A DNA stretch of 64,000 nucleotides from the human T2T-CHM13v2.0 reference genome, Homo sapiens, in NCBI RefSeq assembly GCF_009914755.1, contig NC_060939.1; one strand, given 5' to 3'. Both the position numbers and the translations under genes were made by a program. This document shows positions 54,491-59,896 of this stretch, piece after piece; positions within the stretch are counted from its first letter, which is position 1; each line of letters starts with the position of its first letter. Below the pieces are notes generated by a model that was not told the DNA's origin, did not search any database, and saw nothing but the letters and a program-made list of their open reading frames with translations.

Positions 54491-54728
54491 TATTTTTTAA
54501 AAAACCTAAGGCAGATATCTTTAATAGTTAATTGTGGAACCCATTCCTTATAAATAAGATGCCCACTAACGAAACAAAAGGCATAAAGATGAGGAAAAAA
54601 ATCCCAACTATATATTGGTAGATTATATGTTTATTTACGTAGAAAACGCTAAAAAAAATCTAAGATTAATTATTAGAATGCTTAACAGAATTTATTGTGG
54701 TTGCTGAAACAAAATAAATGGTATTTCT

Positions 54729-57700
54729 TTTTTTTTTTCATTATTATTACACTTTAAGTTTTAGGGTACATGTGCACAACGTGCAGGTTTGTTACATATG
54801 TATACATGTGCCATGTTGGTGTGCTGCACCCATTAACTCATCATTTAGCATTAGGTATATCTCCTAATGCTATACTTCCCCCCTCCCCCCACCCCACAAC
54901 AGTCCCCAGTGTGTGATGTTCCCCTTCCTGTGTCCATGCGTTCTCATTATTCAATTCCCACCTATGAGTGAGAACATGTGGTGTTCGGTTTTTTGTCCTT
55001 GCGATAGTTTGCTGAGAATGATGGTTTACAGCTTCATTCTGTCCCTACAAAGGACATGAACTCATCATTTTTTATGGCTGCATAGTATTCCATGGTGTAT
55101 ATGTGCCACATTTTCTTAATCCAGTCTATCATTGTTGGACATTTGGGTTGGTTCCAAGTCTTTGCTATTGTGAATAGTGCCACAATAAACATACATGTGA
55201 ATGTGTCTTTATAGCAGCATGATTTATAATCCTTTGGGTATATACCCAGTAATGGGACGACTGGGTCAAATGGTATTTCTAGTTCTAGATCCCTGAGGAA
55301 TCACCACACTGACTTCCACAATGGTTGAACTAGTTTACAGTCCCACCAACAGTGTAAAAGTGTTCCTATTTCTCCACATCCTCTCCAGCACCTGCTGTTT
55401 CCTGACTTTTTAATGATCGCCATTCTAACTGGTGTGAGATGGTATCTCATTGTGGTTTTGATTGGCATTTCTCTGATGGAGAGTGATGATGAGCACTTTT
55501 TCATGTGGTTCTTGGCTGCATAAATGTCTTCTTTTGAGAAGTGTCTGTTCATATCCTTTGCCCACTTTTTGATGGGGTTGTTTTTTTCCTGTAAATTTGT
55601 TTGAGTTCATTGTAGATTCTGGATATTAGCCCTTTGTCAGATGAGTAGGTTGCAAAAATTTTCTCCCATTCTGTAGGTTGCCTGTTCACTCTGATGGTGG
55701 TTTCTTTTGCTGTGCAGAAGGTCTTTAGTTTAATTAGATCCCATTTGTCAATTTTGGCTTTTGTTGCCATTGCTTTTGGTGTTTTAGACATGAAGTCCTT
55801 GCCCATGCCTATGTCCTGAATGGTAATGCCTAGGTTTTCTTCTAGGGTTTTTATGGTTTTAGGTCTAACCTTTAAGTCTTTAATCCATCTTGAATTAATT
55901 TTTGTATAAGGTGTAAGGAAGGGATCCAGTTTCAGCTTTCTACATATGGCTAGCCAGTTTGCCCAGCACCTTTTATTAAATAGGGAATCCTTTCCCCATT
56001 GCTTCTTTTTCTCAGGTTTGTCAAAGATCAGGTAGTTGTAGATATGCGGCATTATTTCTGAGGGCTCTGTTCTGTTCCATTGGTCTATAACTCTGTTTTG
56101 GTACCAGTACCATGCTGTTTTGGTTACTGTAGCCTTGTAGTATAGTTTGAAGTCAGGTAGTGTGATGCCTCCAGCTTTGTTCTTTTGGCTTAGGATTGAC
56201 TTGGCGATGCGGGCTCTTTTTTGGTTCCATATGAACTTTAAAGTAGTTTTTTCCAATTCTGTGAAGAAAGTCATTGGCAGCTTGATGGGGATGGCATTGA
56301 ATCTATAAATTACCTTGGGCAGTATGGCCATTTTCACGATATTGATTCTTCCTACCCATGAGCATGGAATGTTCTTCCATTTGTTTGTGTCCTCTTTTAT
56401 TTCATTGAGCAGTGGTTTGTAGTTCTCCTTGAAGAGGTCCTTCACGTCCCTTGTAAGGTGGATTCCTAGGTATTTTATTCTCTTTGAAGCAATTGTGAAT
56501 GGGAGTTCACTCATGATTTGGCTCTCTGTTTGTCTGTTATTGGTGTATAAGAATGCTTGTGATTTTTGTACACTGATTTTGTATCCTGAGACTTTGCTGA
56601 AGTTGCTTATCAGCTTAAGGAGATTTTGGGCTGAGACGATGGGGTTTTCTAGATATACAATCATGTCATCGGCAAACAGGGACAATTTGACTTCCCCTTT
56701 TCCTAATTGAATGCCCTTTATTTCCTTCTCCTGTCTGACTGCCCTGGCCAGAACTTCCAACACTATGTTGAATAGGAGTGGTGAGAGAGGGCATCCCTGT
56801 CTTGTGCCAGTTTTCAAAGGGAATGCTTCCGGTTTTTGTCCATTCACTATGATTTTGGCTGTGGGTTTTCAATAGATAGCTCTTATTATTTTGAGATATG
56901 TCCCATCAATACCTAATTTATTGAGAATTTTTAGCATGAAGGGTTGTTGAATTTTGTCAAAGGCCTTTTCTGCATCTATTGAGATAATCATGTGGTTTTT
57001 GTCTTTGGTTCTGTTTATATGCTGGATTACGTTTATTGATTTGCGTATGTTGAACCAGCCTTGCATCCCAGGGATGAAGCCCACTTGATCATGGTGGATA
57101 AGCTTTTCGATGTGTTGCTGGATTCGGTTTGCCAGTATTTTATTGAGGATTTTTGCATCAATGTTCATCAAGGATATTGGTCTAAAATTCTCTTTTTTGG
57201 TTGTGTCTCTCCTAGGCTTTGGTATCAGGATGATGCTGGCCTCATAAAATGAGTTAGAGAGGATTCCCTCTTTTTCTATTGATTGCAATAGTTTCAGAAG
57301 GAATGGTACCAGCTCCTCCTTGTACCTCTGGTAGAATTCGGCTGTGAATCCGTCTGGTCCTGGACTTTCTTTGGTTGGTAAGCTATTAATTATTGCCTCA
57401 ATTTCAGAGCCTGTTATTGGTCTATTCAGAGATTCAACTTCTTCCTGGTTAAGTCTTGGGAGGGTGTATGTGTCAAGGAATTTATCCATTTCTTCTAGAT
57501 TTTCTAGTTTATTTGCATAGAGGTGTTTATAGTATTCTCTGATGGTAGTTTGTATTTCTGTGGGATCGGTGGTGATATCTCCTTTGTCATTTTTTATTAT
57601 GCCTATTTGATTCTTCTCTCTTTTCTTCTTTATTAGTCTTGCTAGCAGTCTATCGATTTTGCTGATCTTTTAAAAAAACAGGCTCCTGGATTCATTGATT

Positions 57701-59880
57701 TTTTGAAGGGTTTTTTTGTGTCTCTATTTCCTTCAGTTCTGCTCTGATCTTAGTTATTTCTTGCCTTCTGCTAGCTTTTGAATGTGTTTGCTCTTGCTTC
57801 TCTGGTTCTTTTAATTGTGATGTTAGGGTGTCAATTTTAGATCTTTCCTGCTTTCTCTTGTGGGTATTTAGGGCTATAAATTTCCCTCTACACACTGCTT
57901 TGAATGTGTCCCAGAGATTTTGGTATGTTGTGTCTTTGTTCTCGTTGGTTTCAAAGAACATCTTTATTTCTGCCTTCATTTCATTATTTACCCAGTAGTC
58001 ATTCAGGAGCCGGTTGTTCAGTTTCCATGAAGTTTAGCAGTTTTGAGTGAGTTTCTTAATCCTGAGTTCTAGTTTGATTGCACTGTGGTCTGAGAGACAG
58101 TTTGTTATAATTTCTCTTCTTTTACATTTGCTGAGGAGTGTTTTACTTCCAACTATGTGGTCAATTTTGGAATAGGTGTGGTGTGGTGTGCTGAAAAGAA
58201 TGTATATTGTGTTGATTTGGGGTGGAGAGTTCTGTAGATGTCTATTAGGTCTGCTTGGTGCAGAGCTGAGTTCAATTCCTGGATATCCTTGTTAACTTTC
58301 TGTCTCATTGATCTGTCTAATGTTGACAGTGGGGTGTTAAAGTCTCCCATTATTATTGTGTGGAAGTCTAAGTCTCTTTGTAGGTCTCTAAGGACTTGCT
58401 TTATGAATCTGGGTGCTCCTGTACTGGGTGCATGTATATTTAGGATAGTTAGTTCTTGTTGAATTGATCCCTTTACCATTATGTAATGGCCTTGTCTCTT
58501 TTGATCTTTGTTGGTTTAAAGTCTGTTTTATCAGAGACTAGGATTGCAACCCCTGCCTTTTATTGTTTTCCATTTGCCTGGTAGATCTTCCTTCATCCCT
58601 TTTTTGTGAGCCTATGTGTGCCTCTGCACATGAGATGGGGTTCCTGAATACAGCACACTGATGGGTCTTGACTCTATCCAATTTGCCAGTCTGTGACTTT
58701 TAATTGGAGCATTTAGCCCATTTACATTTAAGGTTAGTATTGTTACGTGTGAATTTGATCCTGTCATTATAATGTTAGCTGGTTATTTTGCTCATTAGTT
58801 GATGCAGTTTCTTCCTAGCCTTGATGGTCTTTACAATTTGACATGTTTTTGCAGTGGGTGGTACCGGTTGTTCCTTTCCATGTTTAGTGCTTCCTTCAGG
58901 AGCTCTTTTAGGGCAGGCCTGGTAGTGACAAAATCTCTCAGTCTTTGCTTGTTTGTAAAGTATTTTATTTCTCCTTCACTTATGAAGCTTAGTTTGGCTG
59001 GATATGAAATTCTGGGTTGAAAATTCTTTTCTTTAAGAATGTTGAATATTGGCCCCCATTCTCTTCTGGCTTATAGAGTTTCTGCCGAGAGATCAGCTGT
59101 TAGTCTGATGGGCTTCCCTTTGTGGCTAACCCAACCTTTCTCTCTGGCTGCCCTTAACATTTTTTCCTTCATTTCAACTTCGGTGAATCTGACAATTATG
59201 TGTCTTGGAGTTGCTCTTCTCAAGGAGTATCTTTGTGGCATTCTCTGTATTTCCTGAATTTGAATGTTGGCCTGCCTTGCTGGATTGGGGAAGTTCTGCT
59301 GGATAATATCCTGCAGAGTGTTTTCCAACTTGCTTCCATTCTCCCTGTCACTTTCAGGTACACCAATGAGACGTAGATTTGGTCTTTTCACATAGTCCCA
59401 TATTTCTTGGAGGCTTTGTGTGTTTCTTTTTATTCTTTTTTCTCTAAACTTCTCTTCACGCTTCATTTCATTCATTTCGTCTTCCATCACTGATACCCTT
59501 TCTTCCCGTTGATCACATTAGTTACTGAGTCTTGTGCATTTGTCACGTAGTTCTCGTGCCATGGTTTTCAGCTCTATCAGGTCCTTTAAGGACTTCTCTG
59601 CATTGGTTATTCTAGTTATCCATTCGTCTAATTTTTTTTCAAAGTTTTTAACTTCTTTGCCATTGGTTCGAACTTCCTCCTTTAGCTCAGAGTAGTCCGC
59701 TGTTCTGAAGCCTTCTTCTCTCAACGCGTCAAAGTCATTCTCCGTCCAGCTTTGTTCTGTTGCTGGTGAGGAGCTGCATTCCTCAGTTGGAAATGCAGAA
59801 ATCACCCATCTTCTGCGTTGCTCACACTGGGAGCTGTAGACTGGAGCTGTTCCTATTCGGTCATCTTCTCTCCACCCCCC
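54729..59880 (-). mobile_element. L1PA (about L1PA4-like) element with intact 5' and 3' ends but the 5'UTR-ORF1 intron spliced out (SpIRE); ORF1 and ORF2 are disrupted
   Basis: 5' end GGGGGGTGGAG..AAGATG..GAATAGGAACAGCTCC at 59880. ORF1 and ORF2 EN/RT fragments in the track (59071-59490, 58153-58479, 56869-57489, 55549-56847). Poly(A) at about 54729-54738. 16-bp TSD aataaatggtatttct at 54713-54728 and 59881-59896. Confidence 0.95.
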
Positions 59881-59896
59881 AATAAATGGTATTTCT

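What the first reader, a model, noticed from the sequence alone, without database searches (positions are those of the whole stretch)
54713..59896. Full-length L1 retrotransposed from a spliced RNA (SpIRE 97/976 type)
Seen: on minus the element starts at the true L1 5' end (59880) and reads 99 nt to ..TTTCCAACTGAG. It then continues directly (59782/59781) with GAATGCAGCTCCTCACCAGC, which is ORF1 at about codon 23. A poly(A) tail and a perfect 16-bp TSD are present, and the length is 5.15 kb, about 0.9 kb short of full length. Known: CTGAG|GT near L1 nt 97 is the conserved 5'UTR splice donor and CCAAAG|GAA near nt 976 is an acceptor inside ORF1. Insertions of this spliced form are the rare SpIRE97/976 class. 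Inference: the loss is exactly a GT..AG intron, not a genomic deletion. It removed most of the sense promoter, the antisense promoter/ORF0 and the ORF1 ATG, so mobilisation probably needed ORF1p in trans. There is no in-frame ATG in the 5' exon, and the WMEND Met codon is ACG here. The copy is dead on arrival and lies sense to SCAPER.
Basis: partly seen in the sequence, partly recalled or inferred. Interest (0 to 1): 0.8.

Follow-up and report, generated by a model that had tools for sequence, protein, structure and literature searches.

The report
Spliced LINE-1 copy in SCAPER intron
This is an old, dead LINE-1 copy made from an L1 RNA that had been spliced before it was copied back into the genome, a known but uncommon kind of insertion, and this copy is missing from the published list.

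Summary
On the minus strand a 5,152-nt L1 (59880..54729) lies between perfect 16-bp target-site duplications, ends in a 10-A tail and sits at a TTCT/A nick site.

After 99 nt of 5'UTR (..CTGAG) it runs straight into ORF1, 66 nt past the ATG. In 9 of 9 same-age full-length L1s taken from the same genome, the missing 970-1006 nt start with GT and end with AG. The loss is therefore exactly the known 5'UTR-donor/ORF1-acceptor intron, the SpIRE97/976 type of Larson 2018.

The same junction occurs at 28 other places in this assembly. The 18 read in full or near full length mostly show flanks and candidate duplications of their own.

In a 5-kb tree the spliced copies are scattered among full-length ones along the L1PA ladder (AU test against one clade, p about 1e-5). 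They are repeated by-products of splicing, not one spliced lineage.

The SCAPER copy falls among L1PA4-labelled copies, with about 3% private change. ORF1 and ORF2 are broken, and no near-identical progeny was found.

It is not among the 11 catalogued SpIRE97/976 copies. The biology is known; this is a new member of the class.

The parts
59881..59896 (-). 5' target-site duplication AGAAATACCATTTATT. The bases before it (..GTTT) give the bottom-strand nick site TTCT/A.
   Evidence: identical to 54713-54728
59782..59880 (-). L1 exon 1: the first 99 nt of the 5'UTR, from the true 5' end to ..TTTCCAACTGAG, the splice donor site (L1.3 nt 97 in Larson's numbering)
   Evidence: aligns to the first 100 nt of full-length copies at 94-95%. 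In them the next bases are GT.
59781..59782 (-). Exon-exon junction CTGAG|GAATGCAG. Three bases (AG|G) are shared by both sides, so the break is placed to within 3 nt.
   Evidence: the two blast pieces overlap at query 98-100
58831..59781 (-). ORF1 remnant from codon 23 to the natural stop, 951 nt in one frame. It has two premature stops (59518-59520, 59071-59073). It lacks the ATG, and the codon at the later Met position is ACG.
   Evidence: three adjoining stop-to-stop frames in one phase. Tnp_22_trimer 1.3e-26, Transposase_22 2.5e-57, Tnp_22_dsRBD 4.5e-42.
54950..58767 (-). ORF2 remnant (the low end is approximate). The reading passes through at least three frame changes and several stops. 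The reverse-transcriptase domain is split over two pieces.
   Evidence: RVT_1 4e-20 (56872-57669) and 4.4e-21 (55552-56868). The pieces 58156-58515, 57695-58033 and 55304-55606 gave no Pfam match at E 0.001, so the endonuclease domain was not confirmed by Pfam.
54729..54949 (-). 3'UTR end and poly(A) tail (10 A at 54729-54738)
   Evidence: colinear with the 3' ends of other copies
54713..54728 (-). 3' target-site duplication

Best explanation
A full-length L1 of about L1PA4 age was transcribed from its own 5' end. The spliceosome joined the conserved 5'UTR donor (CTGAG|GT, L1.3 nt 97) to the acceptor 66 nt inside ORF1 (polypyrimidine run ..CCTCTCCTCCTCCAAAG|G, L1.3 nt 976). This removed about 1.0 kb: most of the 5'UTR and the ORF1 start.

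The spliced, polyadenylated RNA was then reverse-transcribed at a TTCT/A nick in a SCAPER intron by target-primed reverse transcription. The result was a complete copy of the spliced RNA with a poly(A) tail and a 16-bp duplication.

Such an RNA cannot make full-length ORF1p, so that protein presumably came from other L1s in trans. Without most of its promoter and without an ORF1 start, the copy could not go on. It has since decayed by about 3%.

Shown here: the anatomy, the exact GT..AG ends, the recurrence of the junction at independent sites, and the scatter of spliced copies among full-length ones in the tree. Inferred: that splicing came before integration, the supply of ORF1p in trans, and the age.
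For: Structure:
- 16/16 duplication, 10-A tail, true 5' end.
- in 9 of 9 same-age full-length copies (L031-35, L040-43) the missing stretch starts GT and ends AG, is 970-1006 nt long, and the ATG-to-acceptor distance is 66 nt.
- apart from this gap the copy is colinear with full-length L1s from query 98 to 5146-5151 in L031, L034 and L035; in L033 the long piece ends at 5115.

Recurrence:
- of 41 listed matches to 181 nt across the junction, 22 other loci span it, 1 spans it 5'-truncated, 16 match only the first 100 nt, and 1 matches only query 97-178.
- of 36 pattern matches, 25 are junction copies including this one; the reversed control gave 0.
- The union is 28 other junction copies.
- the scan was run on 18 spliced copies read in full or near full length. 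Most show flanks and candidate duplications of 10-16 nt of their own, for example L011, L014, L017, L021, L023, L027, L029 and L030. Several gave only weak 6-8-nt candidates or repeat-confused ones.

Independence:
- tree of 19 spliced and 12 full-length copies over 5,048 columns. The spliced label needs 7 changes, at least 5 of them forced by starred branches.
- AU test against one spliced clade, lnL difference 292.7, p 9.6e-6.
- the copy shares at most 3 exclusive variants with any other copy.

Literature: Larson 2018 (passages) defines SpIRE97/976 with this junction. It shows that such a construct cannot move in cis and is rescued at a low level by ORF1p in trans.
Against: - No orthologous locus of another primate could be read, so splicing before integration is not shown directly for this copy.
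- The break carries a 3-nt microhomology (AG|G). For a single copy this would also fit a microhomology-mediated deletion or a template switch.
- The splicing and trans-complementation experiments were done with L1.3, not with an L1PA4-type 5'UTR that carries the extra roughly 120 nt.
- The full-length controls in the tree are few (12) and were not sampled at random. Five were picked by likeness of the first 100 nt, four are old outgroups, and three were taken from the top of a pattern list.
- Pfam did not find the endonuclease domain in the piece offered.
Confidence: 0.93

Rival explanations
1. The copy was made from an already integrated SpIRE97/976, not from a fresh splicing event. The parent would have been read through from a host promoter and moved with L1 proteins in trans.
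For: groups it loosely with another spliced copy (L011, chromosome 6 at 84.07 Mb) and one full-length copy (L032): SH-aLRT 88, branch 0.0019. A SpIRE97/622 in RAP1GDS1 is reported to have produced progeny through a co-opted gene promoter (PMC13174262, passage).
Against: - The group also holds a full-length copy and is not starred.
- Only 3 exclusive shared variants with L011, against 1-2 with full-length copies.
- One clade of all spliced copies is rejected.
- Larson's 97/976 construct moved only weakly even with ORF1p supplied.
Confidence: 0.04
2. A full-length L1PA4 was inserted and later lost about 1 kb by a genomic deletion between the short AGG repeats.
For: There is a 3-nt microhomology at the break. 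Other deletions within the 5'UTR do exist: L045 on chromosome X lacks about nt 165-900 and keeps an intact CTGAG|GT.
Against: The same base-exact break is seen at 28 other loci, and most of those read in full show flanks of their own. It coincides with a GT..AG pair with a polypyrimidine run that is a documented L1 intron. Three bases of homology cannot direct such recurrence.
Confidence: 0.02
3. The reverse transcriptase switched template during cDNA synthesis, from ORF1 to the 5' end of the same or another L1 RNA.
For: L1 recombination with other RNAs is documented (PMC13174262, abstract). There is microhomology at the break.
Against: Template switches would scatter. Here the ends are the GT and AG sites in every copy.
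Confidence: 0.01

Closest known systems
SpIRE97/976 (Larson et al. 2018, PLoS Biol, PMC5860796; first noted by Belancio and colleagues, as cited there)
   Same: Same donor and acceptor, loss of the ORF1 ATG plus 66 nt, full-length otherwise, target-site duplication, poly(A), consensus-like nick site. Its length of 5,152 nt lies within the 5,064-5,232 of the nine listed copies with no further deletion noted in the table.
   Different: It is not in the list of 11: the only chromosome 15 entry is in UNC13C, and the duplication word is absent from the supplements. The 97 and 976 numbers are L1.3 coordinates. In this older subfamily the acceptor lies near nt 1,090-1,105.
SpIRE97/622 and SpIRE97/790 (same paper)
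   Same: Same donor after nt 97; same origin by splicing before retrotransposition.
   Different: Their acceptors lie inside the 5'UTR, so ORF1 stays whole. This copy lost the ORF1 start.
SpIRE97/622 in RAP1GDS1 that regained mobility through the host promoter (Cell Genomics 2026, PMC13174262, passage)
   Same: A spliced L1 lying sense in an intron of an expressed gene.
   Different: No progeny was seen here. The best other match is 94% across the junction and 96% over the 3' 960 nt (40 of 8,684 candidates scored). ORF1 also has no start here.
Processed pseudogenes
   Same: Intron loss shows that a spliced RNA was the template; same L1 machinery and hallmarks.
   Different: Here the template is the L1's own RNA.

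Membership tests
SpIRE97/976 | The 5' end of the gap falls directly after the 5'UTR splice donor (exon ends CTGAG, intron starts GT) | tested here: met
   9 of 9 same-age full-length copies read CTGAG|GT at the point where this copy breaks.
SpIRE97/976 | The 3' end of the gap falls directly after the AG acceptor 66 nt into ORF1 | tested here: met
   ..CCTCTCCTCCTCCAAAG|GAA in 9 of 9. ATG-to-acceptor distance is 66 nt in all 11 unspliced copies where the ATG was found.
SpIRE97/976 | Hallmarks of L1 retrotransposition: target-site duplication, poly(A) tail, L1 endonuclease-type nick site | tested here: met
   16-bp duplication, 10 A, TTCT/A.
SpIRE97/976 | Otherwise a full-length L1, from the true 5' end to the 3'UTR | tested here: met
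SpIRE97/976 | The intron was lost at the RNA stage, before integration | not testable with these tools
   No primate orthologues were on hand. Indirect support: the same junction at 28 other loci, most of those read in full with flanks of their own.
L1PA4 subfamily | Shares the subfamily's diagnostic changes and age | tested here: inconclusive
   No curated reference or RepeatMasker was available. In the tree it branches between two copies that Larson labels PA4 (entries 8 and 9). Its end branch is 0.030, against 0.026-0.028 for those, 0.021-0.025 for PA3 and 0.011 for PA2.

The most novel reading that the evidence does not exclude
The 97/976 class is about three times larger than the published catalogue: 29 junction copies were found here, plus one catalogued copy that my searches missed, against 11 listed. 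It reaches back into the older L1PA forms with the GGTTCC-type 5' end.

The copies arose again and again along the L1PA trunk over some 20 million years, so they record the rate at which L1 RNA was mis-spliced. For the GGTTCC type the rough figure is 8 spliced copies against 458 or more unspliced full-length 5' ends.

In the older sources the codon later used as a downstream start was ACG, not ATG. Their spliced RNAs could therefore not even make the 33-kDa truncated ORF1p seen with L1.3.
Probability: 0.6. Interest if true: 0.3.

Novelty: new member of a known kind. Interest (0 to 1): 0.25.

Why it matters
It adds one well-preserved, base-exact example, and 18 further candidates, to a small class. 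That class shows that L1 RNA is spliced in the germ line or early embryo and that such RNAs can still be inserted with proteins from other elements. For SCAPER it is an old, fixed, sense-oriented 5-kb L1 in an intron with no sign of activity. Nothing here changes how L1 biology is understood.

Tried and rejected
- **A spliced L1 lineage that multiplied.** Rejected by the tree, the AU test and the count of exclusive shared variants.
- **An apparent clade of seven older spliced copies.** It appeared in the first tree, which had only five full-length controls. It broke up once three GGTTCC-type full-length copies were added.
- **Progeny or duplicates of this copy.** None above 94% across the junction or 96% over the 3' 960 nt. 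Only 40 of 3,347 and 40 of 8,684 candidates were scored, so this is not exhaustive.
- **Pattern hits with 2 mismatches.** Eleven of 13 are not junction copies. Eight read GAGGTA or GAGGCA, the unspliced form. L020 was shown to be an unspliced older L1 whose donor reads GA. Two more (chromosome 4 at 55.58 Mb, chromosome 18 at 8.81 Mb) were judged unspliced from the 26-mer alone.
- **The chromosome X locus at 108.99 Mb.** It looked like another splice form. It is an ordinary 5'UTR deletion with an intact donor.
- **The ASAR15 link**. The window lies in SCAPER, which hosts ASAR15, but the L1 piece tested there is an antisense L1PA13 fragment. No tie to this copy was found.
- **Rows left out of the trees.** L015 (rearranged, 709 colinear nt), L020 (not spliced) and L041 (only the first 1.2 kb of an L1 is present there).
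- **Supplements.** Larson's docx of sequences is held with long runs cut. The search for the duplication word therefore covers only the text held.
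Full report
**What is there**

Read on the minus strand, the region opens with the 16-nt word AGAAATACCATTTATT (59896-59881). An L1 5' end follows at 59880: a G-run, then GGAG..AAGATG.CCGAATAGGAACAGCTCC.

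99 nt later the 5'UTR stops at ..TTTCCAACTGAG (59782). The next base (59781) begins GAATGCAGCTCCTCACCAGC.

The element runs on to 54729, ends in 10 A (54738-54729) and is followed by the same 16-nt word (54728-54713). The duplication cannot be extended at either end. The bases before the upstream copy give a bottom-strand nick site TTCT/A, a common variant of the L1 endonuclease site. The length between the duplications is 5,152 nt.

**The gap is a GT..AG intron**

No outside reference sequence could be brought in, so I took full-length L1s from the window's own genome.

A 181-nt query across the junction listed 41 matches:
- the window itself;
- 22 loci that span the junction;
- 1 that spans it but is 5'-truncated;
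- 16 that match only the first 100 nt (ordinary full-length 5' ends);
- 1 that matches only query 97-178.

I fetched five of the 16 (L031-35) and, later, four more full-length copies of the GGTTCC 5'-end type (L040-43, taken from the top of the list).

In 9 of 9 the sequence reads CTGAG|GT at the point where the SCAPER copy breaks, and ..CCTCTCCTCCTCCAAAG|GAA where it resumes. The stretch between is 970-1006 nt.

The ORF1 ATG lies 66 nt before the acceptor in all 11 unspliced copies where I could find it, so exon 2 starts at codon 23.

The two blast pieces overlap by three bases (AG|G). The break can therefore be placed only to within 3 nt, as is usual at splice junctions.

Four full-length copies measure 6,135-6,193 nt. 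This copy is therefore about 1.0 kb short. The 878 nt of Larson's L1.3 construct is smaller because, as that paper's passage recounts, younger L1s lost 129 bp of the 5'UTR.

**It matches a published class but is not in the catalogue**

Larson et al. 2018 (PMC5860796; passages, S1 Table, parts of S1 Data) define SpIRE97/976 by exactly this junction (G98U99/A974G975). They list 11 copies.

None of the 11 is in SCAPER. The one chromosome 15 entry is in UNC13C at 54.06 Mb. The duplication word of the SCAPER copy does not occur in the supplements as held (long sequence runs are cut in that copy).

Three literature searches were made:
- 'SpIRE' / 'LINE-1' / 'spliced integrated retrotransposed';
- 'SCAPER' / 'LINE-1' / 'spliced';
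- 'SpIREs' / 'retrotransposon' from 2018 on.

None turned up a further catalogue or any mention of this locus. The earlier papers of Belancio and colleagues, credited with ten of the eleven copies, were not read.

**How many such copies there are**

A 26-letter junction pattern with up to 2 mismatches gave 36 matches, and 0 for the reversed control.

- The 23 matches with 0 or 1 mismatch all carry the spliced form.
- Of the 13 with 2 mismatches, two are spliced: chromosome 2 at 213.07 Mb and chromosome 15 at 72.96 Mb (checked).
- Eight read the unspliced GAGGTA or GAGGCA.
- One (L020) proved to be an unspliced older L1 with a mutated donor.
- Two were judged unspliced from the 26 letters alone.

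Together this gives 28 other junction copies.

Ten of them are Larson's entries 1-10. For entries 1, 8 and 9 the flank text matched. For entry 5 the AAAAT repeats matched, for entry 7 the 3' truncation, and for entry 10 the junction variant and the 3.3-kb size. Entries 2, 3, 4 and 6 were matched by chromosome and approximate position only.

Entry 11 keeps only about 8 nt of exon 1, which is why my searches missed it.

That leaves 18 other copies, plus this one, outside the catalogue. Eleven of the 18 were read in full or near full length. One was read over 481 nt. Six are known only from the alignments.

**Independent events, not a spliced lineage**

A scan of the flanks was run on 18 spliced copies read in full or near full length. 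Most have flanks of their own and candidate duplications of 10-16 nt. Several gave only weak 6-8-nt candidates or ones confused by flanking repeats.

I built a maximum-likelihood tree on the shared 5 kb: 5,048 columns, 19 spliced and 12 full-length copies, with four much older full-length copies as outgroup. L015, L020 and L041 were left out for the reasons given under Tried and rejected.

The tree is the ladder expected of L1PA: inner branches of 0.001-0.005 and end branches of 0.011-0.046. Spliced and full-length copies alternate along it.

- The spliced label needs 7 changes, at least 5 of them forced by starred branches.
- A tree that holds all spliced copies together is worse by 292.7 log-likelihood units (AU p 9.6e-6).
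- An earlier tree with only five controls had shown seven older spliced copies as a clade. That clade dissolved when three full-length copies of that age were added.
- The SCAPER copy shares at most 3 exclusive variants with any other copy, spliced or not.

The full-length controls are few and were not drawn at random. That limits the claim to this: there is no sign of a spliced lineage, and one origin is rejected.

**Age and state**

The SCAPER copy branches between two copies that Larson labels PA4. Its end branch is 0.030, against:
- 0.026-0.028 for the two PA4 copies;
- 0.021-0.025 for three PA3 copies;
- 0.011 for two PA2 copies.

The published subfamily ages as I recall them (Khan et al. 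2006: about 7.6, 12.5 and 18 million years; recalled, not checked here) would put the insertion near 18-20 million years ago. It should then be shared by apes and absent from Old World monkeys. This could not be tested.

The ORF1 remnant (59781-58831, 951 nt) keeps one frame but has two premature stops. ORF2 passes through at least three frame changes and several stops.

Pfam finds the ORF1p trimerisation, RNA-binding and C-terminal domains, and the reverse transcriptase split in two pieces. Of the eight pieces offered, three gave no match, including the one where the endonuclease should lie. One further piece gave only a sub-threshold match to an unrelated family.

**A correction on the ACG codon**

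Among the copies read, this codon is ACG, ATG or ACA in a mixture. Three of the four older unspliced copies with a readable codon (L037, L038, L020) have ACA. The fourth, L036, has ATG.

ATG and ACA are the two products of CpG decay of ACG. ACG from ATG would need a change that is not favoured. The source most likely carried ACG.

If so, the downstream start that gives a 33-kDa product from Larson's L1.3 construct (section 13) did not exist in this RNA.

**Mechanism**

The best reading (0.93) has three steps: transcription of an L1PA4-age element from its own start; splicing from the 5'UTR donor to the ORF1 acceptor; and target-primed reverse transcription of the spliced RNA into the SCAPER intron.

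ORF1p would have been supplied by other elements. Larson's construct with this deletion did not move in cis even with a CMV promoter, and moved at a low level when ORF1p was supplied (section 15).

Those experiments used L1.3. For this copy the trans supply and 'dead on arrival' are inferences.

No near-identical copy exists among those scored: 94% at best across the junction and 96% at best over the 3' 960 nt.

**Rivals**

- Descent from an integrated spliced copy: 0.04.
- Deletion after insertion: 0.02.
- Template switching: 0.01.

All three are weakened by the base-exact recurrence of the junction at GT and AG. The first is further weakened by the tree.

**Verdict**

The thing is a known kind, so interest is low. 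The modest gain is that this copy and 18 others are not in the published list, and that the class extends to older L1PA forms.

Noticed in passing
G000 chromosomes (positions in Mb): 1 at 83.53 and 172.59; 2 at 141.42 and 213.07; 3 at 138.15; 4 at 120.99; 6 at 84.07 and 104.42; 7 at 96.06; 8 at 3.43, 6.61 and 109.19; 9 at 1.79, 13.32 and 15.69; 15 at 72.96; X at 13.97 and 56.91: Eighteen further L1 copies carry the same 97/976 junction and are not among Larson's 11. Most have the older CCAACTGAG / GCAGCTCC forms. Eight, counting L012 and L030 whose 5' ends read CAGTTCC, have the GGTTCC-type 5' end. One lies only 1.6 Mb from this window.
   Followed up: partly
window 59743-59745 (minus strand; codon ACG in S-W-T-E-N-D): This codon is a mix of ACG, ATG and ACA among L1PA copies of this age. 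It is ACA in three of the four older unspliced copies with a readable codon and ATG in the fourth. The Met used as a downstream start in L1.3 therefore looks like a later CpG-derived gain.
   Followed up: partly
L036-L038 (older full-length L1s), first bases of the intron: In older L1PA copies the intron starts GTACCCAGCTCCTC (L038). This is 12 of 14 identical to the start of exon 2, GAACGCAGCTCCTC. In PA4-age copies the likeness is lower (GTACCGGGTTCATC). No explanation; it may be chance. It makes short junction patterns pick up unspliced old copies.
   Followed up: no
L020 = G000 chromosome 7:144386750-144393737: An unspliced older L1 whose donor reads CTGAG|GA instead of GT, so it mimics the spliced junction in a 26-letter pattern.
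   Followed up: yes
L045 = G000 chromosome X:108994540-108995120: An L1 with an internal 5'UTR deletion of about nt 165-900 and an intact CTGAG|GT donor. This is a deletion that is not at the splice sites.
   Followed up: yes
whole window (SCAPER introns): SCAPER hosts ASAR15, long nuclear RNAs from about 370 kb of the gene that control replication timing of chromosome 15. The locus is said to be over 55% L1 (PMC4287527, passages). The L1 piece tested there is an antisense L1PA13 fragment (PMC5800813). Whether this window lies in the critical 122 kb was not worked out.
   Followed up: no
G000 chromosome 15:74677677 onward (about 90 kb beyond the window's end): A full-length L1 5' end 95% like the first 100 nt of this copy. 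The 3' 960 nt of this copy also match at chromosome 15:74678860-74679820 at 95%. That lies only about 1.2 kb from the 5' end, so the neighbour may itself be internally deleted. Not read.
   Followed up: no
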